Shown here: in pieces, positions 4,140-13,673 of the stretch
How positions within the stretch are numbered: the first letter of the stretch is position 1
How the letters are laid out: every line of letters starts with the position of its first letter
Virus record (IMG/VR): IMGVR_UViG_3300012078_000003
Reading direction: 5' to 3' (one strand)
DNA from: a virus
Length of the DNA stretch: 56,966 bases
The notes under the pieces: generated by a model
Seen by the model: the letters and a program-made list of their open reading frames with translations, nothing else
Database searches by the model: none
Told to the model about the DNA's origin: nothing
Made by a program: the position numbers and the translations under genes

Positions 4140-4330
4140 GATTTAGTTTTGAGGGCTGATTCTTGACACTTCACATCTGAATTCCTGCTTCAACGATCGT
4201 TGCTGGCTGGCCCAGTCTTACATAATCTCCACAGGCGTAAAATCCGGCGTGTCCCGCCGTACTCAATTTATGATTACGCGCTTAACAGGCGCAAGCCCTC
4301 ATTTAGAATATTGGTGGCAGCATTAATATC
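4140..4330 (-). ncRNA. Candidate omega/reRNA of TnpB (3' end of tnpB plus right end)
   Basis: Position rule for TnpB guide RNAs. Local helices GGCG/CGCC and palindrome CAACGATCGTTG downstream of the stop. Confidence 0.4.
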
Positions 4331-5392
4331 CCTATCGTGAATTGTATCACATTCTGGACATTGCCATTTCCTCACCGCCAAGTCTTTAGTACCTTTGTTC
4401 TGATAGCCGCAACGGGAGCAAGTCTGGCTTGATGGGAAGAATTTGTCTACCCTGATAAGTGCCTTGTGCTGCCATTCACACTTGTACGAAAGCTGGCGGA
4501 TAAACTCATTCCACGATGCATCATTGATAGACTTTGCAAGCTTATGGTTCTTTATCATATTTTTCACTCGTAAATCTTCAATGCAGATAATGTCATAATC
4601 CTTGACAAATTGGGTTGATAGTTTATGTAGGGAATCGTTCCGCTGGTTTGCCACGCGCTCATACAGCTGCGCAACCTTGATCCTTGCCTTATTTCTGTTT
4701 TTGCTACCCTTTGATTTTCGGGATAGCGCACGTTGGGCTTTGGCAAGCTTCTTTTCTGATTGTCGTAAAAACTGGTGGTTTTGAAATTTCTGTCCATCGG
4801 AAGTAATTGCAAAATCCTTTAAGCCTAAATCAATTCCAATTGTCGCCCCAGTGGATTCATATTGTAAAATCTCGACATCGGTACAGCAAATAGAAACAAA
4901 ATATTTGCCGCTTGGGTTTTGGGATATGGTTGCAGAAAGAATGCGTCCATTGACCTGTCTTGAAATTGCGCATTTTGTTTCCCCTATCTTTGGAAGTTTA
5001 ATCTTTCCATCTTTTAAGTAAATGCTATTTTTAACATTTCTGGTTTTATATGATTTTTTAGAAGTCTTTTTTGATTTAAATTTCGGAAATCCAGGCTTTA
5101 AAGATTTTGATTTTACCCTATTGAAGAAGTTTAAAAAAGATTGATCGAGGTTTTTTAGGGATTGCGTCAGTGGAAAACAATCAACTTCCTTCAGCCACGG
5201 CAATTCATTTTTTAGTTGAGTAAGCATTGCATCCGTTTCATAGAAGCGAATAGTTTTTCCATTTTCCTTATATGCATTAATCCTAGTGGCGAGAAAATAA
5301 TTATAAACAAATCGACAACAACCAAATGTTTTGTGAACCAAGACTTCCTGTTCCTTGCTTGGATATATGCGGAACTTATATGTCTTTTCCAT
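4274..5392 (-). CDS. tnpB: TnpB RNA-guided nuclease (IS605 OrfB family)
   Basis: N-terminal [11 protein letters not shown]. RuvC D-E-D motifs [21 protein letters not shown] and HDRDINAA. Zn ribbon CSRCG...CPEC. Confidence 0.92.
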
Positions 5393-5454
5393 CAAAATTC
5401 CTTTCACATGGGAAGGGGTAGGGGCCTATCCTCATTACCCCTCTTTCAATCATT

Positions 5455-6853: not shown

Positions 6854-8074
6854 TTAATATTTCAACTTAGAAACACTCGCCTTTTTATCTTCAATATCTA
6901 CTGTATCATATATCTGAGTCGTGGATATACTCTTATGTCTGAGGAGTTCTCGAATATCATCCAGGTCGACTCCGCTTCGCCTTAGATATGTGGCAAACGT
7001 ATGGCGCATTTTATGCGGTGTCAGTCTTGGGATTAAGTCAGGATCAATCTTCTCCCCTATCTTCTTGCTTTCCTCCTCCGCCCTCTCGGTAATTTTACAA
7101 TTCAAATCATCAAAGAATTTATAATATAGTTCATCGTAGGATGCATGTGTGTGATGCTCGTAAATAACATGCGTTTCCCCTAAATCGTCCTTGAATTTTA
7201 CAGGTCGGCTCATAACATATACGCCCGTCTTTGGTATTTTATCCAGCAGCGGATCAAGGGCGGTGTTGTATGTGACTATGCTTTCATCTTCTGATTTGGT
7301 CCCGGGTGTGATCTCGTGTTTAAATACTCCAGGCTTTTCTTCTTCCTCAACCAGTGTTAAGGATCGCCGAATGTGAAACGTATGATTTTCTTTGTCACGG
7401 TCAACCCACATAAGCCCAAAGCCCTCACCTGGACGCAGGCCAGAGTAAAGATACAAAGCGATAAACGGTCCGTATTCATGCTCACTTAAATATTTTACAA
7501 TGGCGGACATATGATTGCGCTTAAATACGGATGGAGCCTTTGGTGATTTCGGCGGAAGTTCAATTCCAACAACTGGATTCTGCTTACATAATCGGTTTTC
7601 GATGGCAGTTTTGAAGATTCCCTCAAGCGCCCATAATAGTTTTTCTGCGGATGACCGGGACAGTGGCTTTCCTTCTGGATATTTTCTATTAGGTTTTGTT
7701 TTGGAATCTCTAAAAAGTTTTTTGATGTGTGCCGGCCGTACATCGTTGAGTTTCAATTTACCGATTTCTGGATTAATATGACGCGAAATATACATCTTAT
7801 AATCTTTGTACGCGCCGGCCGATTTTCCTGGTTCTGGTTTTTTGTATAACTCAACCCAATGCTCGGCCCATTGCGTGACGGTTTTGACTTTCTCGATTGT
7901 AACCTTATGTTCCGAGGCCAACCACTCCTTATGCGCCTTTCTACAGGCCGTAGGCGACGACGCGGTAAATGACTTGCGAACGGTTACGCCGTCGATTTCG
8001 TCCACTGTGCGCAGCCGGTAACTGCCGCTTGGAAGTTTCGTTATAGTTCCCTCGCCGTTTGCTTTGCGTCCCAT
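6854..8074 (-). CDS. int: Tyrosine integrase
   Basis: C-terminal HKMRHTFATYL...LLRHKSISTTQIYD (R-H-R-Y catalytic pattern). Adjacent to attP. Confidence 0.93.
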   Translation of the reverse strand: MGRKANGEGTITKLPSGSYRLRTVDEIDGVTVRKSFTASSPTACRKAHKEWLASEHKVTIEKVKTVTQWAEHWVELYKKPEPGKSAGAYKDYKMYISRHINPEIGKLKLNDVRPAHIKKLFRDSKTKPNRKYPEGKPLSRSSAEKLLWALEGIFKTAIENRLCKQNPVVGIELPPKSPKAPSVFKRNHMSAIVKYLSEHEYGPFIALYLYSGLRPGEGFGLMWVDRDKENHTFHIRRSLTLVEEEEKPGVFKHEITPGTKSEDESIVTYNTALDPLLDKIPKTGVYVMSRPVKFKDDLGETHVIYEHHTHASYDELYYKFFDDLNCKITERAEEESKKIGEKIDPDLIPRLTPHKMRHTFATYLRRSGVDLDDIRELLRHKSISTTQIYDTVDIEDKKASVSKLKY

Positions 8075-8206: not shown

Positions 8207-8560
8207 TCATCTATTGGAAAATGTTTCATCTGGCCGTTCCTTGTATTTCTCCAAGAGTCCCAAAATCTTATCTACGGTATCTATATCCTCATCCGTGAAG
8301 CTGCGTTCAAATTTTTCAATCATATATTGTTTCAAATATTCGCTGAAAGTCAAATTCGCGGGATTTCGATTATTGGAATACCCTATAAGATAATCTATAC
8401 TCACGTTAAAATATTGAGCAAGTTTTGTCAGCATTTCAATATCGGGTTGCACCGTTCCGTTTTCCCATTTCGATACCATTCCTTGGTTAACATTCATTGC
8501 CATAGCGATTTCATCCTGAATTTCCCGGCGCTCTTCGCGCAATTCCTTAATTCTAATCAT
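8207..8560 (-). CDS. XRE-family HTH repressor-like protein
   Basis: GAAAGGGGTG SD then ATG 8560. IRIKELREERREIQDEIAMAMNVNQGMVSKWENG. Confidence 0.8.
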   Translation of the reverse strand: MIRIKELREERREIQDEIAMAMNVNQGMVSKWENGTVQPDIEMLTKLAQYFNVSIDYLIGYSNNRNPANLTFSEYLKQYMIEKFERSFTDEDIDTVDKILGLLEKYKERPDETFSNR

Positions 8561-8777
8561 ATTTACACCCCTTTCCAACCAGTATAGAAAAGTCGGATAG
8601 GGCGTTTCCACAAATAATCAAAATAGGAATTATATATTAATTTATCATTCAGTATGTGAATATTAAGTTATCATTAATTACTCCATAATATTCCATTAAT
8701 TTACAATATTTACAATACAAATATGATAAAGTGTATAACAAATCCGATATTGGACGATAGCCATGGGCATACATAAA

Positions 8778-9008
8778 ATGAAAGAAGTGGACAACATGAA
8801 CGACGTAAAGACACATTCTGGGGCGGTTTCCGTCTTAAATGAAGAGGAGGATTTGGTACAATCTAGGGGAAATTCGGATATAAAGCACACCAAAAAAGAA
8901 ATTATACAATGCGCTATTCGCCAAAACTTTACGCAGGCAGAATGGGAACGCAGAAAAGTAGTTCTATATATCGCTCTCCAAAACTGCCTTTGCAAGTTTG
9001 ACGATTAA
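8778..9008 (+). CDS. Doubtful small ORF in an AT-rich spacer
   Basis: Track ORF 8763-9008 with no good SD. Its 3' end is the antisense shadow of 8964-9308. Confidence 0.25.
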   Translation: MKEVDNMNDVKTHSGAVSVLNEEEDLVQSRGNSDIKHTKKEIIQCAIRQNFTQAEWERRKVVLYIALQNCLCKFDD

Positions 9009-9308
9009 ATCAAGTTTGCCTTTGGGTATTTCTCCATACTGATTATATAATGCATCAAACATATTATTAATGTCGCTCTCGATTTCTTCGGGGGCGACTT
9101 TTTCATTTGCATATGGTTCTGATATCGCGTCAACGGGATATCCTAGGCAGTTAACTATCGCTTGAACTGTGGCATATGCTGGATTTTTTGTTTGCCCTGA
9201 AAATAATTTATCTACTGTGCTCTTGGGTATTCCAGACATATTAGCTATTTCCTCATTTGTCTTACCGGACGCCTTTTTTATTTGGTTTAAACGTTCCAGC
9301 CAATTCAT
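8964..9308 (-). CDS. XRE-family HTH repressor (CI candidate, adjacent to the switch)
   Basis: AGGAGG SD 8 nt before ATG 9308. NEEIANMSGIPKSTVDKLFSGQTKNP. Confidence 0.85.
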   Translation of the reverse strand: MNWLERLNQIKKASGKTNEEIANMSGIPKSTVDKLFSGQTKNPAYATVQAIVNCLGYPVDAISEPYANEKVAPEEIESDINNMFDALYNQYGEIPKGKLDLIVKLAKAVLESDI

Positions 9309-9330
9309 AGTTAGCACCTCCTTTTCCTAC

Positions 9331-9454
9331 ATTGTACCCTAATGTGGAGATTCTGTCAATAAACAAATTTCCAAAAATGGCAATTATCTTTCAAAAAACC
9401 CTTGACAATATCCATATATGGAAGTAGAATAAGAGTAAGATATCCAAATATGGA
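9331..9454. promoter_or_regulatory. Lysis-lysogeny switch: divergent promoters with three TCCAnAnATGG operators
   Basis: Leftward TTGACA-17-TACAAT (9359-9331). Rightward TTGACA-17-TAGAAT (9402-9430). Operators at 9370-9381, 9411-9422 (perfect TCCATATATGGA) and 9443-9454. Confidence 0.75.
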
Positions 9455-9471
9455 AGTGAGGTGCAAGCATA

Positions 9472-9684
9472 ATGCGAAATCTTGAAGCGGAAATGAGGCG
9501 GAGCGGCATCCGATCGGAGGATATCAAAAATCTTTTGAATTGTTCCGACAGAACCGCAAGAAATAAGATCAAGGGGGTTACTCCGTTTACTTTTCCAGAG
9601 GCTGAGATTGTAAGGAATCATTTTTTTCCAGGTCTTTTGATGGAATATCTATTCGCGGCAGATAACAACAATCAAGCCAGCTAG
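9472..9684 (+). CDS. Cro-like early regulator
   Basis: First rightward gene. MRNLEAEMRRSGIRSEDIKNLLNCSDRTARNKIKG pattern of Clostridial phage Cro-like proteins. Confidence 0.75.
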   Translation: MRNLEAEMRRSGIRSEDIKNLLNCSDRTARNKIKGVTPFTFPEAEIVRNHFFPGLLMEYLFAADNNNQAS

Positions 9685-9694
9685 GAGGCCCGCC

Positions 9695-9826
9695 ATGCAA
9701 AAGCTAACCCCGGCCCAACAAGAGATATTCGAAATGCTTTGCCAATGCAAGAATTTTGAACCGAATCCGTATTTTCTTGTGGATGAAGAACTGGATGAAA
9801 GGTTCAATGAAGTACAGGCCAGTTAG
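9695..9826 (+). CDS. Small acidic protein (43 aa), possible antitoxin partner
   Basis: AGGAGG SD then ATG 9695. Ends 9 nt before the MazF-like start. Confidence 0.5.
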   Translation: MQKLTPAQQEIFEMLCQCKNFEPNPYFLVDEELDERFNEVQAS

Positions 9827-9835
9827 GAGGTACGT

Positions 9836-10906
9836 ATGCCAGACATAAGGCGCGGCGACATTTATTACATACGCAGCGACTACCCGCCCACCGGCAGCGA
9901 ACAGGGAGCCAACAGGCCGGGCGTTATCGTCTCAAATGATATGTGTAATAAGTATTCTCCCGTTGCCAGCATTGTATATCTGACTACTCGCAAGGCGAAT
10001 AAACCATTGCCTACCCATGTGCATATAAGATGTACGCACCCATCCATAGCCTTATGCGAACAGGTGCATTCTGTATCTAAGGAGCGTCTTGAAGGCTATA
10101 TGGGACATATCACGGAACAGGAAAAGCGCGAGATTGACGAAGCCTTGAAGGTTTCGCTGGCGATTAAAGATGAAGGGGTGGTGCAGATGAGCGAGTTGGC
10201 AATTATCAACAAAGACGGAATCCTTACAATCGACAGCCGAGAAGTGGCCGAGATGGTAGGCAAGGAGCATTTTTCACTTATGCGCGATATACGAACCTAT
10301 TGCGGATATTTAGGAAAATCCAAAACTGTATGCTCCGAGTTTTTTATCGAAAGCGAATACAGGAGCGAGCAAAACAAAACTATGCCTTGCTATCTTATCA
10401 CCCGAAAAGGCTGTGACATGGTTGCCAATAAGATGACTGGTGAAAGAGGCATATTATTCACCGCAACCTATGTCAACAGGTTCCATGAAATGGAACAGCG
10501 CCTTTCAACTCCACAGTTGCCGCAAAATTACCTTGAAGCTCTCAAAGCCCTTGTTGCCAGCGAGGAAGAAAAGCAAGCCTTGCAGACTGAAAATCAAAAT
10601 ATGCTCCCAAAGGCTGCGTTTTTCGATGCAGTGGCCAATAGCAAGGACGCTATCGAAATGGCAGCAGTGGCAAAGGTTCTGGCGATTCCGGGATATGGTC
10701 GTAACAATCTATTTGAATTCCTGCGCAATCATAAGGTGTTGCAAGAAAACAATCAGCCGTATCAAAGACACATAGATGCAGGAAGATTCCGGCTTGTAGA
10801 GCAGAAATACAATAAGCCTGATGGCAGCACTCACATAAGCATAAAAACGCTTGTCTATCAAAAGGGTGTAGATTATATCAGACGGCTGGTGACGCAAGCC
10901 AGTTAA
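9836..10906 (+). CDS. Fusion ORF: MazF/PemK-like toxin domain + Rha + KilAC (antirepressor) domains
   Basis: RGDIYYI..GSEQGANRPGVIVSND..LPTHV..ALCEQVHSVSKERL (MazF), then DSREVAEMVGKEHFSLMRDI (Rha), then LPQNYLEALKAL...PKAAFFDAV (KilAC). Internal SD + ATG at 10187. Confidence 0.85.
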   Translation: MPDIRRGDIYYIRSDYPPTGSEQGANRPGVIVSNDMCNKYSPVASIVYLTTRKANKPLPTHVHIRCTHPSIALCEQVHSVSKERLEGYMGHITEQEKREIDEALKVSLAIKDEGVVQMSELAIINKDGILTIDSREVAEMVGKEHFSLMRDIRTYCGYLGKSKTVCSEFFIESEYRSEQNKTMPCYLITRKGCDMVANKMTGERGILFTATYVNRFHEMEQRLSTPQLPQNYLEALKALVASEEEKQALQTENQNMLPKAAFFDAVANSKDAIEMAAVAKVLAIPGYGRNNLFEFLRNHKVLQENNQPYQRHIDAGRFRLVEQKYNKPDGSTHISIKTLVYQKGVDYIRRLVTQAS

Positions 10907-10941
10907 CAATAAAGCCGATCCGGCGGCGGGAGGGAGGATAT

Positions 10942-11043
10942 ATGAAGCTTGGCAAAGAAGACAAGAAAATTATTTATCAAAGTGCAATTACCACCGTGAT
11001 ATTCAATCTATTGATTGATTTGTTGAAATATCTGCTGGGCTAA
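10942..11043 (+). CDS. Tiny hydrophobic ORF (33 aa)
   Basis: GGGAGGGAGG SD then ATG. Convergent overlap with 11008-11451. Confidence 0.3.
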   Translation: MKLGKEDKKIIYQSAITTVIFNLLIDLLKYLLG

Positions 11044-11451
11044 ATTCAGCAATATTGGCCCTAACCATTTCATGAGCGCTATTGCAATATTCGCGATTAT
11101 GGAGACTGTAATTGGAGCCACCATCCGATTCCTCCATCCGCGACGTTCTCTGGCCTTGTAGTCTTGCAATAATTTCTTCCCCGGACCAATAAGATAATAT
11201 TTCCCAGTTGGCTTTGATCCGGTGGAACCATCTTTATTCGTGAACGCCTCTGCTTTTTCTCCGATTATGCTCCTGATTCGAGAAAGCCGGATAATGTAAG
11301 TATTATCATTATTAAATTGTTTTAAGATTTGTTCTTTGGTTACGGATTCATATTGCCCTATGAAATCAATCAATTTCCAGTCCAATATTTCAAAATCTTC
11401 AACCTTAGACGCTGGTAACTTATTAATAGTATCGAATTTAGCTAACATCAT
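11008..11451 (-). CDS. Antisense-oriented protein, wHTH-like N-terminus + C-terminal TM
   Basis: GGGAGGG SD. A+T-rich. C-terminal MVAPITVSIIANIAIALMKWLGPILL. Confidence 0.7.
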   Translation of the reverse strand: MMLAKFDTINKLPASKVEDFEILDWKLIDFIGQYESVTKEQILKQFNNDNTYIIRLSRIRSIIGEKAEAFTNKDGSTGSKPTGKYYLIGPGKKLLQDYKARERRGWRNRMVAPITVSIIANIAIALMKWLGPILLNLAQQIFQQINQ

Positions 11452-12587: not shown

Positions 12588-13208
12588 TTGCAGCGATTAA
12601 CCCCGCCCCTCCTATCAATAGGCTTCTGCCTGATTACGATTCTATGGGCCGGAGCCAAGATAGACGGGGCAAATACAAGAGCGGACCAGGCAGAAGCGAT
12701 CCAGACGATAACGGAAGCTTCAGAACGTGTTTGGAAAGAGAAATCCGAAAGGCTGGAATCGGAACTGATCGAAATGATACATATGGCTAACCAGATCGGA
12801 GAATGGGAGATTGAAGGTGTACCGCTGTCCAGAGAATTGCAGGAATATACCATCAATACTTGTCTGGAATATGACATCAATCCGGTTATCCTGTTCCGGC
12901 TCATGTATAGGGAAAGCCGATTCGCCGTGGACGCTATCGGCTACAACCGCGATGGCACCCAAGATTACGGCCTTTGTCAACTAAATGATGTTACACTGCC
13001 CTTCCTGCTGGAGAGCGGCATAGACCCCACGGAATCGCCGCAGGAGAATATCAGGGCAGCATGTGAGTTGATTTCCTATTATCGGGATGAGCGCGGGTAT
13101 ACGATGCTGGAGGCGTTGGCCTGTTATGGCGTGGGCGAAGAAGGATTTAAACTCGGCGAGGGACTTGAAGCAGCAGAAAAATTGATTGAAGGGATTGAAT
13201 TGTTATGA
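12588..13208 (+). CDS. Lytic transglycosylase (SLT domain) with N-terminal signal anchor
   Basis: LMYRESRF...DYGLCQLN catalytic-Glu / GLMQ-like motifs. N-terminal LLSIGFCLITILWAGA. Confidence 0.8.
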   Translation: MQRLTPPLLSIGFCLITILWAGAKIDGANTRADQAEAIQTITEASERVWKEKSERLESELIEMIHMANQIGEWEIEGVPLSRELQEYTINTCLEYDINPVILFRLMYRESRFAVDAIGYNRDGTQDYGLCQLNDVTLPFLLESGIDPTESPQENIRAACELISYYRDERGYTMLEALACYGVGEEGFKLGEGLEAAEKLIEGIELL

Positions 13209-13357
13209 GGAAACTTCTACGTCAAATCGCACGGAACAATATGAAAAAGGCCGGAATCCAACGGATGAACAAGCGGCCTATGGTGATAGGTAAAAGCGGA
13301 ATGATGGAACGCGCTGACAGCTTTTTCAGTCAGCATTGGCGGGAATATTGCAAATAA
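13205..13357 (+). CDS. Small basic protein (50 aa)
   Basis: ATGA overlap with the SLT stop. MRKLLRQIARNNMKKAGIQRMNKR... Confidence 0.5.
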   Translation: MRKLLRQIARNNMKKAGIQRMNKRPMVIGKSGMMERADSFFSQHWREYCK

Positions 13358-13410
13358 ACAACCGCCCGCCGTGACAGGATCACGATAGGGCAGATTGAAA
13401 GGAGAAATTC

Positions 13411-13599
13411 ATGTTTAAGAAAGGCGATCGGGTAGTTATTGTAGGCAGCGCGGAGGAAGAAAAGTATAAGGGCTGCATATTTGAAGTTTTGAGCGATCCA
13501 TATAGCATATGCGGCTCCGATGTAGTCAAAATGAAGTGCCACGAAACGGGCAAATATTTTGGCGGTGGATATGCGGTTGAATATCTCATGTATGCGTAA
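13411..13599 (+). CDS. Hypothetical protein (62 aa)
   Basis: AAAGGAG SD. Track ORF. Confidence 0.65.
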   Translation: MFKKGDRVVIVGSAEEEKYKGCIFEVLSDPYSICGSDVVKMKCHETGKYFGGGYAVEYLMYA

Positions 13600-13673
13600 A
13601 AAACGCCGCCCGGTGAAGCAACACCAAGGCGGCAAAGGAAACTATTCATCTTTATTATACATACGGAAAGGTT

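What the first reader, a model, noticed from the sequence alone, without database searches (positions are those of the whole stretch)
9695..10906. MazF/PemK toxin domain fused in frame to a Rha-KilAC antirepressor, preceded by a 43-aa acidic ORF
One uninterrupted 356-codon ORF starts with a textbook MazF/PemK domain (RGDIYYI, GSEQGANRPGVIVSND, LPTHV, ALCEQVHSVSKERL). It then runs without a stop into a Rha domain and a KilAC domain. These normally form a separate antirepressor gene.

The junction still carries an SD-like GAAGGGGTGG and an ATG at 10187. The antirepressor could therefore also be made alone, and the fusion looks like a lost stop codon. A 43-aa ORF (9695-9826, perfect AGGAGG SD) sits where a MazE-type antitoxin would be, but it is much shorter than known MazE proteins.

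This arrangement places an mRNA-interferase module directly after cro in the immediate-early operon and physically couples it to the prophage-induction antirepressor. I do not recognise this as a described architecture.
Basis: partly seen in the sequence, partly recalled or inferred. Interest (0 to 1): 0.62.

Follow-up and report, generated by a model that had tools for sequence, protein, structure and literature searches.

The report
Phage MazF nuclease–antirepressor fusion gene
A temperate phage carries one early gene that joins an intact MazF-type RNA-cutting toxin domain to an ordinary Rha–KilAC "antirepressor" regulator; the fusion is real, recurs in other phages, has no dedicated antitoxin, and has not been described in the papers I could search.

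Summary
ORF 9836-10906 (356 aa) has PemK/MazF, Rha and KilAC domains, each above Pfam's cut-off. The model shows three confident domains joined by a disordered linker (residues 113-118).

The "lost stop codon" reading does not hold as an accident:
- The identical protein is on at least 3 contigs.
- The same architecture recurs at 38-45% identity.
- It arose from at least two MazF lineages.
- The same MazF clade is also fused to AntA, ORF6N-KilAC and Bro-N-ORF6C modules.
- None of 70 unfused phage MazF genes with a downstream ORF is followed by an antirepressor gene.

The catalytic Arg and Thr are kept in all seven aligned fusions. A start codon with an SD-like run sits at the junction in 8 of 9 fusion loci (perfect AGGAGG in 3), so a free antirepressor is probably made too.

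The 43-aa ORF is a real gene but probably not the antitoxin. Its homologues lie in MazF-less phages, its acidic tail is not conserved, and the closest MazF relatives lack it.

The gene is a 1.1-kb cassette, absent from a sister phage, in a repressor-controlled early operon.

Best reading: an antitoxin-less early RNase-regulator fusion, silenced transcriptionally in the lysogen. It is a new variant of known kinds.

The parts
6854..8074 (-). Tyrosine integrase (406 aa) at the left end of the prophage
   Evidence: ORF. The same int / HTH repressor / early-operon layout is seen in related fusion loci, with Pfam Phage_integrase on the equivalent genes.
8207..8611 (-). HTH_3 (Xre/CI-type) regulator, 134 aa
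   Evidence: Pfam HTH_3 E 7.9e-14. PHROG transcriptional regulator/repressor.
8964..9317 (-). HTH_3 repressor-like gene (117 aa), divergent from the early operon
   Evidence: Pfam HTH_3 E 4.1e-8. PHROG transcriptional repressor families.
9331..9359 (-). Leftward promoter-like site, TTGACA-17-TACAAT (11/12)
9402..9430 (+). Rightward early promoter-like site, TTGACA-17-TAGAAT (11/12)
9408..9457 (.). Two operator-like 18-nt repeats, ATATCCAWATATGGAAGT (9408-9425 and 9440-9457), over and just after the rightward -10; the first copy holds the perfect palindrome TCCATATATGGA, the second has one mismatch
   Evidence: family D3, 94% identical.
9472..9684 (+). First gene of the early operon (70 aa, in the cro position). 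It ends in ...QAS* with its stop codon overlapping the next SD
   Evidence: Only weak HTH hits (HTH_11 E 0.044). The cro role is positional inference.
9695..9826 (+). 43-aa early ORF. It is a real small gene but probably not an antitoxin
   Evidence: Homologues P0239 (61% identical) and P0240 (79%) are the only ones found. Their contexts lack MazF. Only MQKLTxxQxEIFxxLCQCKNFEPNP is conserved.
9780..10907 (+). 1.1-kb cassette (tail of the 43-aa ORF plus the whole fusion gene), absent from sister phages L013 and L014
   Evidence: blastn: window 9673-9779 matches L013 3979-4085 (84%) and 10908-10933 matches L013 4116-4141 (96%).
9815..9830 (+). 5' boundary motif CAGGCCAGTTAGGAGG (encodes ...QAS*, with SD)
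   Evidence: The same 16-mer precedes the L010 fusion.
9836..10906 (+). MazF-Rha-KilAC fusion gene (356 aa)
9836..10171 (+). MazF/PemK endoribonuclease domain (residues 1-112). It keeps catalytic R27 and T50, plus the GSEQG and CEQ RNA-contact motifs
   Evidence: R and T are invariant in clade alignments.
10172..10189 (+). Disordered linker (residues 113-118) carrying the SD-like GAAGGGGTGG (10172-10181) and the internal ATG (10187-10189)
   Evidence: pLDDT below 50 for residues 113-118. The junction Met aligns with the start Met of unfused antirepressors. An SD plus start recurs at this boundary in relatives.
10229..10498 (+). Rha (Phage_pRha) domain, residues 132-221
10586..10894 (+). KilAC/ANT domain, residues 251-353
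10895..10906 (+). 3' boundary motif CAAGCCAGTTAA (...QAS*)
   Evidence: Shared with the end of the L009 AntA-type fusion: window 10893-10935 matches L009 2373-2416 at 89%.

Best explanation
Gene 9836-10906 is a genuine, selected gene fusion carried on a 1.1-kb mobile cassette in the immediate-early operon of a temperate contractile-tailed phage.

Its N-terminal 112 residues form a catalytically intact MazF/EndoA-type endoribonuclease. A disordered tether of about 6 residues connects it to an ordinary Rha-KilAC early regulator ('antirepressor').

The RNase has no dedicated protein antitoxin. In the lysogen it is kept off because the whole operon is shut by the prophage repressor acting at the operators over the rightward promoter. 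On induction or infection the operon fires. The fusion then delivers an mRNA-cleaving activity, for host shut-off or tuning of the lysis-lysogeny decision, together with the regulator in fixed stoichiometry. Because MazF is a dimer, the regulator would be delivered as a bivalent molecule.

The start codon and SD-like sequence kept at the junction probably also give a free 239-aa antirepressor, so the cell would receive two products.

Shown here: the domains, the catalytic residues, recurrence and independent origins, cassette structure, lack of a conserved partner gene, and operon anatomy.
Inferred: RNase activity, transcriptional-only silencing, use of the internal start, and the biological role.
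For: 1. Real and recurrent. The identical protein is on at least 3 contigs. The same 3-domain architecture occurs in P0006, P0074, P0079 and P0095 at 38-45% identity, in int / repressor / early-operon contexts.
2. Independent origins. The MazF halves of P0095, P0079 and P0074 are 61%, 50% and 42% identical to EndoA but only 32-36% to the window clade. P0001 and P0006 belong to a phage 'long-MazF' clade.
3. Module swapping in frame. The same MazF clade is fused to AntA, AntA+HTH_3, ORF6N+KilAC and Bro-N+ORF6C. DNA identity between the window and L009/L010 (78%) ends just past the junction ATG.
4. No 'mazF-stop-ant' precursors. None of the 70 downstream ORFs of unfused MazF genes in viral contigs is antirepressor-like.
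5. Active-site conservation. R27, T50, GSEQG and CEQ align with EndoA. R and T are invariant in 62 and 16 clade sequences and kept in all 7 aligned fusions.
6. Independent domains. Mean pLDDT is 90.6, pTM 0.52, and the linker at 113-118 is below 50.
7. No antitoxin. Upstream genes of 67 clade members fall into at least 20 unrelated families. None of the window's neighbouring genes has a homologue in any other fusion locus. No PF04014 ORF was found in the window.
8. Lytic-cycle use. The clade occurs in at least 520 viral contigs and 98 deposited phages, including ~140-kb Lactobacillus phages and the replication module of FP_Lagaffe.
9. Operon anatomy. Divergent promoters score 11/12 each, with operator-like repeats and no promoter or terminator before 10906.
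10. Internal RBS. There is a start codon at the junction in 8 of 9 fusion loci with DNA, and AGGAGG at N5-8 in 3 of them. AGGAGG occurs about once per 1-2 kb, and 50 of 66 copies precede the start of an ORF of at least 40 aa.
11. Precedent. Host MazF activity steers lysis versus lysogeny in phage phi3T (PMC10769878).
Against: - There are no expression, cleavage or toxicity data, and read or RNA evidence was unavailable.
- The window's own junction SD (GAAGGGGTGG) is weaker than in relatives.
- The B. subtilis MazF motif UACAU is not avoided in the phage's sense strand (42 observed, 35.9 expected). It is therefore unclear how the phage spares its own transcripts, or whether that is the motif.
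- In phi3T, MazF activity favours lysogeny, which would oppose a pro-lytic antirepressor on the same chain.
- The 'antirepressor' label for YoqD-like Rha-KilAC proteins is annotation only. The proven antirepressor of SPbeta-like phages is a different protein, Sar (bioRxiv 10.1101/2025.11.27.690993).
- The host genome is not held, so neutralisation by a host MazE cannot be excluded.
Confidence: 0.55

Rival explanations
1. Artefact or recent accident: two ordinary adjacent genes (mazF and ant) were joined by a sequencing or assembly error, or by a very recent stop-codon loss, with no functional meaning.
For: The junction Met aligns with the start Met of unfused antirepressors, and an SD-like run precedes it. 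The nearest antirepressor relatives (P0002, P0003, 63-68% identical) are unfused. Read pile-ups could not be checked.
Against: The identical ORF is on at least 3 contigs. Fusions recur at 38-45% identity with the frame preserved. They come from two MazF lineages and cover six partner architectures. No unfused MazF gene with a downstream ORF is followed by an antirepressor gene (0 of 70). The unfused antirepressor P0002 has an HTH_17 gene upstream, not mazF.
Confidence: 0.04
2. Canonical type II toxin-antitoxin pair: the 43-aa acidic ORF (9695-9826) is a minimal MazE-like antitoxin whose tail plugs the MazF groove.
For: It is in the antitoxin position, translationally coupled, and has an acidic C-terminus (9 D+E against 3 K+R). 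That acidic tail lies inside the cassette, which begins at 9780.
Against: Its homologues P0239 and P0240 occur in 4 loci with no MazF. Only the N-terminal 25 residues are conserved and the tail is not. MazF domains 78-81% identical (L009, L010) have unrelated HTH_17-like genes of 77-78 aa upstream. It has no family hit. The wider clade has no conserved upstream partner.
Confidence: 0.1
3. The MazF domain is mainly a dimerisation or RNA/protein-binding scaffold for the antirepressor, and its nuclease activity is irrelevant or lost.
For: MazF proteins are obligate dimers (established knowledge), and dimeric antirepressors are common. For example, Sar acts as a homodimer that binds two repressors. 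No antitoxin is present, which would be unproblematic for a non-toxic domain.
Against: The catalytic Arg and Thr and the RNA-contact motifs are invariant across the clade and in all 7 aligned fusions. This is unexpected for a mere scaffold.
Confidence: 0.13
4. Defence or addiction module: the cassette is a selfish or abortive-infection element. The C-terminal module acts as a cis antitoxin or sensor that holds MazF inactive until triggered, for instance by a superinfecting phage or by engaging a repressor.
For: The gene is a discrete mobile cassette. Most clade members carry a C-terminal extension ending in a conserved helix, [AT]ERD[VL]YK.LYE.LL, that is confidently modelled (pLDDT about 90) after a disordered linker. 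This is compatible with a cis regulator. Fused toxin-antitoxin sensors are known, such as CapRel-type (my own knowledge).
Against: The gene lies inside the repressor-controlled lytic operon with no promoter of its own. A prophage defence gene expressed in the lysogen would not be expected there. The model shows no packing of the Rha-KilAC half on MazF (pTM 0.52, disordered linker). The window protein lacks the ERDxYKxLY helix.
Confidence: 0.15

Closest known systems
MazF/EndoA (YdcE) of Bacillus subtilis and MazF of Staphylococcus aureus (PDB 4MDX, 4ME7, 4MZM)
   Same: Same fold and profile: E 4e-19 by sequence and target-normalised TM 0.80-0.87 by structure. It keeps the catalytic Arg25/Thr48 equivalents (R27, T50), the GSEQG and EQ RNA-contact motifs, and the C-terminal helix ...IDEALKVSLAI.
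   Different: It is not a ~115-aa stand-alone toxin in a mazE-mazF operon. It is the N-terminal domain of a 356-aa protein with no MazE/AbrB or RHH gene beside it, is phage-borne, and lies in a lytic early operon. It is only 37% identical to EndoA.
Phage 'MazF-like growth inhibitor' (PHROG 1936), for example Faecalibacterium phage FP_Lagaffe AUV56402.1
   Same: Same MazF clade, about 52% identical. Members are phage-encoded, have no adjacent antitoxin, and usually carry extra C-terminal sequence.
   Different: Typical members are 140-230 aa with a linker plus an ERDxYKxLY helix, or about 300 aa with a Zn-ribbon tail. The window protein has a complete Rha-KilAC regulator in that position.
Rha-KilAC 'antirepressors' of Bacillota phages (YoqD of SPbeta/phi3T, phiCD27, phiC2, and gp72 of Clostridium phage D-1873)
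   Same: Residues 118-356 are a full-length homologue, 42-54% identical and 63-68% identical to metagenomic P0002 and P0003. The early-region location is the same.
   Different: Those proteins start at the Met that is residue 118 here and none carries a MazF domain (0 of 1,190 phage records cover at least 80% of the fusion). Their antirepressor activity is mostly annotation, and the proven SPbeta-family antirepressor is the separate small protein Sar.
Host MazEF control of the arbitrium lysis-lysogeny decision in phi3T (PMC10769878)
   Same: A MazF RNase acting during the early phage decision in a Bacillota temperate phage, functionally linked to repressor/antirepressor circuitry.
   Different: There MazF is host-encoded and is modulated by small phage proteins (AimX, YosL, phi3T_93). 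Here the phage encodes its own MazF domain and fuses it to a regulator.
Domain-shuffling network of Bro-N / KilA-N / Rha / AntA / ORF6N with KilAC / ORF6C (Iyer, Koonin and Aravind 2002; cited from my own knowledge)
   Same: The partners fused to MazF (Rha+KilAC, AntA, ORF6N+KilAC, Bro-N+ORF6C) are exactly the modules of that network.
   Different: As far as I know and could search, a MazF nuclease domain has not been listed as a member of that network.

Membership tests
PemK/MazF endoribonuclease superfamily (PF02452) | Profile match above the curated cut-off and the SH3-like barrel fold | tested here: met
   80 bits against a cut-off of 23.1. Foldseek target-normalised TM 0.80-0.87 to solved MazF structures.
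PemK/MazF endoribonuclease superfamily (PF02452) | Catalytic Arg and Thr (EndoA R25/T48) and the substrate-contact loops | tested here: met
   R27 and T50, plus GSEQG and CEQ, are aligned. They are invariant in clade alignments.
PemK/MazF endoribonuclease superfamily (PF02452) | Sequence-specific, ribosome-independent RNA cleavage and growth inhibition | not testable with these tools
   Requires expression and cleavage assays.
Type II mazEF toxin-antitoxin module | Adjacent, co-transcribed and co-evolving antitoxin gene (MazE/AbrB, RHH or similar) | tested here: not met
   The 43-aa ORF has no family hit and its homologues lie in MazF-less loci. There is no PF04014 ORF in the window. Upstream genes of 67 clade members fall into at least 20 unrelated families.
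Type II mazEF toxin-antitoxin module | Autoregulated stand-alone operon expressed in the carrier cell | tested here: not met
   The gene is third in the repressor-controlled early operon with no strong promoter of its own. This is consensus-scan evidence only.
Rha-KilAC phage antirepressor / early regulator (PF09669 + PF03374) | Both domains present, in order, above the curated cut-offs | tested here: met
   89.9 bits (cut-off 29.9) and 97.9 bits (cut-off 25.3). phrog_63 E 1.5e-59.
Rha-KilAC phage antirepressor / early regulator (PF09669 + PF03374) | Location in the early region next to the immunity repressor | tested here: met
   The same layout is seen in relatives.
Rha-KilAC phage antirepressor / early regulator (PF09669 + PF03374) | Binds and inactivates the cognate repressor | not testable with these tools
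Fused (single-chain) toxin-antitoxin with a cis-inhibitory C-terminal domain | The C-terminal module packs on or occludes the toxin active site | tested here: inconclusive
   The monomer model shows independent domains (pTM 0.52, disordered linker). No dimer or PAE information was available.

The most novel reading that the evidence does not exclude
Phage 'long MazF' proteins may be a family of antitoxin-less, single-chain MazF nucleases whose C-terminal module is the regulator. In the antirepressor fusions, the Rha-KilAC (or AntA, or Bro-N) half would tether or license the RNase at the immunity region or on the repressor. Repressor engagement and destruction of specific transcripts, for example the repressor mRNA, would then be coupled in one molecule: an RNA-level arm of antirepression that helps set the lysis-lysogeny decision.
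Probability: 0.1. Interest if true: 0.8.

Novelty: new variant of a known kind. Interest (0 to 1): 0.5.

Why it matters
MazF is the textbook toxin of two-gene toxin-antitoxin modules. Here a catalytically intact MazF is hard-wired to a phage early regulator, with no antitoxin, in an operon that fires only when the phage leaves or bypasses lysogeny. The same solution arose from at least two MazF lineages and with several regulator modules, which argues for a functional link between mRNA cleavage and the repressor/antirepressor switch.

Host MazF was recently shown to steer the phi3T lysis-lysogeny decision (PMC10769878). A phage that brings its own MazF fused to its regulator would be a compact, testable version of that logic in gut Clostridia phages.

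The work also exposes a large phage-specific MazF clade: at least 520 viral contigs, and most of the nearest relatives are longer than 130 aa. Nearly all lack antitoxins and carry conserved C-terminal add-ons. This matters for how 'toxin' genes in phage genomes are annotated.

Tried and rejected
I used recurrence of the identical protein on at least 3 contigs instead.
- Whole-genome search for a host MazE or MazF: no genome is held for this window.
- Looking for a MazE/AbrB gene in the window: sister phages L013 and L014 have two PF04014 genes after their SLT gene, but the window has none.
- Avoidance of the EndoA motif UACAU in phage transcripts: none seen (42 observed, 35.9 expected; rank 865 of 1,024 pentamers).
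- QAS*/SD boundary 16-mer as a general module-junction signal: only 10 unrelated, chance-like hits in IMG/VR, so it is local to this phage group.
- Fusions in species-representative genomes: the genome-contig scan returned the antirepressor half across Bacillota. The two candidates reaching into the MazF half (L103 from C. difficile, L124 from Faecalispora) are not fusions.
- Host identification from flanking proteins: the exact sequences are not in the collection.
- Sar of phi3T as a characterised homologue of the C-terminal half: rejected, because the paper does not link Sar to YoqD, Rha or KilAC.
- The convergent 147-aa gene (11008-11451) as a cassette-specific partner: it has no family hits and no homologue in other fusion loci.
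- Docking of the P0228 terminal helix onto MazF: the tool returns no contacts or PAE, so this is undecided.
Full report
**1. Observation**

The window holds a single 356-codon ORF at 9836-10906 (+) and a 43-codon ORF at 9695-9826 (+). Each is preceded by AGGAGG.

Pfam places three domains above their curated cut-offs:
- PemK_toxin at residues 5-107 (E 1.9e-22)
- Phage_pRha at 132-221 (E 1.7e-25)
- ANT/KilAC at 251-353 (E 5.4e-28)

PHROGs agrees, giving 'MazF-like growth inhibitor' plus 'anti-repressor Ant'. The N-domain aligns with B. subtilis EndoA at E 4e-19. It keeps the catalytic Arg and Thr (R27, T50) and the GSEQG and CEQ substrate loops. The residue roles come from the 4MDX literature, which I cite from my own knowledge.

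The AlphaFold model is confident (mean pLDDT 90.6) but has a pTM of only 0.52, and residues 113-118 fall below pLDDT 50. This means three independent domains on a flexible tether. Foldseek matches the N-domain to solved MazF structures with target-normalised TM 0.80-0.87.

**2. Context**

The window is essentially a whole temperate contractile-tailed phage:
- integrase at 6854-8074 (-)
- two HTH_3 regulators at 8207-8611 (-) and 8964-9317 (-)
- a rightward early operon, followed by Xis-like, exonuclease, replication-initiator and methyltransferase genes
- terminase, portal, major head, sheath, tape-measure and baseplate genes

The 9318-9471 gap holds back-to-back promoter-like sites, each matching 11 of 12 consensus positions. 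It also holds two operator-like repeats, ATATCCAWATATGGAAGT, over and just after the rightward -10; the first copy contains the perfect palindrome TCCATATATGGA.

There is no convincing promoter or terminator between that point and 10906. The fusion is therefore the third gene of a repressor-controlled early operon. The 70-aa first gene has only weak HTH hits, so its 'cro' role is positional inference.

**3. Is the fusion an accident?**

No. Five lines of evidence point the same way.

- The identical protein is encoded on at least 3 contigs of different lengths.
- Among 5.8 billion proteins, the same three-domain architecture recurs in P0006, P0074, P0079 and P0095 at 38-45% identity. These sit in the same integrase / repressor / early-operon setting.
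- The MazF halves of P0095, P0079 and P0074 are 61%, 50% and 42% identical to EndoA but only 32-36% to the window's domain. P0001 and P0006 belong to a different, phage-specific clade. Rha-KilAC has therefore been joined to MazF at least twice.
- The window's MazF clade is also fused to AntA, AntA+HTH_3, ORF6N+KilAC and Bro-N+ORF6C. These are the classic antirepressor-type modules.
- DNA identity between the window and the AntA-type fusions L009 and L010 (78%) covers the MazF half and ends at 10190-10223, just past the junction ATG. The partner was therefore exchanged in frame.

I also tested the 'repeated stop-codon loss' alternative directly. Of the 80 viral contigs fetched with this clade, none of the 70 unfused MazF genes with a downstream ORF is followed by an antirepressor-like gene. 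No deposited phage genome carries the full fusion (0 of 1,190 matching records). No species-representative genome that I checked does either.

**4. The junction**

The Met at residue 118 aligns with the start Met of unfused antirepressors, which begin MNELTIIN.... Nine fusion loci have DNA available:

| Locus | Junction sequence |
|---|---|
| L001 | AGGAGG-N8-GTG |
| L002 | AGGAGG-N5-ATG |
| L006 | AGGAGG-N8-ATG |
| Window, L009, L010, L020, L191 | weaker purine-rich runs, then ATG |
| L007 | no start codon |

AGGAGG occurs about once per 1-2 kb in these sequences, and 50 of the 66 copies precede the start of an ORF of at least 40 aa. Three hits in the roughly 7-nt window before one chosen codon are very unlikely by chance (my estimate is p of about 3e-5). 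Internal initiation giving a free 239-aa antirepressor is therefore plausible, but it has not been shown.

**5. The 43-aa ORF**

It is a real gene, with two homologue clusters found (P0239 and P0240). Three findings argue against an antitoxin role:
- All four homologue contexts lack MazF.
- Only the N-terminal MQKLTxxQxEIFxxLCQCKNFEPNP is conserved. The acidic tail is not.
- The 78-81% identical MazF domains of L009 and L010 have unrelated HTH_17-like genes upstream.

It has no family hit beyond a weak resemblance of its first 17 residues to the first helix of LexA.

**6. Cassette structure**

Against sister phages L013 and L014, homology stops at window 9779 and resumes at 10908. So 9780-10907, which is the tail of the small ORF plus the fusion gene, is a 1.1-kb indel.

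It is bracketed by copies of a gene-end motif that encodes ...QAS* with the stop codon overlapping the next SD: CAGGCCAGTTAGGAGG at 9815 and CAAGCCAGTTAA at 10895. The same motif ends the gene upstream of the small ORF in both phages, precedes the L010 fusion, and ends the L009 fusion. The exact 16-mer is not widespread, with only 10 chance-like hits in IMG/VR.

**7. The wider MazF clade**

- At least 520 viral contigs encode it, as do 98 deposited phages, including Faecalibacterium, Coprococcus, Blautia, Enterocloster and ~140-kb Lactobacillus phages.
- Of the 150 nearest 50%-identity representatives, only 9 are 130 aa or shorter. In the viral loci, 4 of 72 are.
- Most carry a variable, often acidic linker plus a conserved terminal helix, [AT]ERD[VL]YK.LYE.LL. 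Others carry a Zn-ribbon tail, a second MazF domain, or an N-terminal HTH.
- Upstream genes fall into at least 20 unrelated families. In FP_Lagaffe the gene sits in the replication module with no antitoxin.
- The catalytic Arg and Thr are invariant.

**8. Mechanism**

This is inferred. The best-supported reading is an antitoxin-less early RNase-regulator fusion. It is silent in the lysogen because the prophage repressor shuts the operon. It is produced at induction or infection, cleaves mRNA through the MazF domain, and delivers the Rha-KilAC regulator as a dimer-linked partner. A free regulator is probably made from the internal start as well.

The closest precedent is host MazF controlling the phi3T lysis-lysogeny choice (PMC10769878; bioRxiv 10.1101/2025.11.27.690993).

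Caveats:
- There are no expression or activity data.
- UACAU is not avoided in the phage's transcripts.
- A host MazE cannot be excluded.
- The 'antirepressor' function of YoqD-like proteins is unproven. The proven antirepressor of SPbeta-like phages, Sar, is a different, small protein.

**9. Novelty**

Both domain families are known, and an automated JGI name already lists both halves for P0095. No paper in the searchable library describes MazF fused to antirepressor modules or the long, antitoxin-less phage MazF clade. I file it as a new variant of known kinds with moderate interest.

Noticed in passing
Related proteins P0228, P0192, P0295, P0345 and others; loci L016-L098: A large phage-borne 'long MazF' clade. 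Most members are 140-230 aa, with a variable and often acidic linker and a conserved terminal helix [AT]ERD[VL]YK.LYE.LL. In the P0228 model this helix has pLDDT of about 90 after a disordered stretch at residues 132-172. It may be a cis regulator or a docking helix. No adjacent antitoxin is present.
   Followed up: partly
P0137, P0133, P0127; L051, L056, L064, L090, L092: MazF proteins of about 300 aa with a conserved 'MQITMKTPFGEMNFxMP' segment and a C-terminal multi-CxxC zinc-ribbon domain. P0137 alone is seen on 66 contigs.
   Followed up: no
P0121, P0122, P0241-P0244, P0275: Tandem MazF-MazF single-chain proteins, with 2 matched stretches and in one case 4. Because MazF normally dimerises, these would form covalent pseudo-dimers.
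   Followed up: no
window 9673-9688, 9815-9830, 10895-10906; L013 3979; L010 3560-3575; L009 2373-2416: Three consecutive genes end in ...QAS* through the motif CARGCCAGYTAR, with the stop codon overlapping the next SD. The same motif brackets the fusion cassette and recurs at cassette borders in related phages. This looks like a local module-boundary sequence that promotes in-frame exchange.
   Followed up: partly
window 9408-9425 and 9440-9457: Two 18-nt operator-like repeats lie over and just after the rightward early promoter; the first contains the perfect palindrome TCCATATATGGA. A further 21-nt repeat pair lies at 8634-8680, between the two HTH genes.
   Followed up: no
L013 7414-7824 and L014 4092-4502, compared with window 13205-13600: The sister phages carry two PF04014 (MazE/AbrB-type) small genes right after the SLT gene. 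The window's SLT gene (12588-13208) is 85% identical to theirs, but the window has unrelated small ORFs in that position. So the phage that has the MazF fusion lacks the MazE-type genes, and the phages with MazE-type genes lack the fusion.
   Followed up: partly
window 9695-9745: The first 17 residues of the 43-aa ORF (MQKLTPAQQEIFEMLCQ) weakly resemble helix 1 of the LexA DNA-binding domain (Pfam E 0.035). The ORF is too short to form the whole domain.
   Followed up: no
window 4274-5407 (-): An IS-type transposase (phrog_506, E 2e-137) lies just outside the integrase end of the prophage.
   Followed up: no
L022 and L037 versus L024 and L026; L038 and L039 versus L040: Within otherwise syntenic viral contigs, some MazF ORFs are cut to 119-140 aa and lose the C-terminal helix, while their neighbours keep 155-175 aa. 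These may be natural truncation variants.
   Followed up: no
window 11008-11451 (-): The convergent 147-aa gene with a C-terminal hydrophobic segment has no Pfam or PHROG hit and no homologue in any other fusion-bearing locus.
   Followed up: partly
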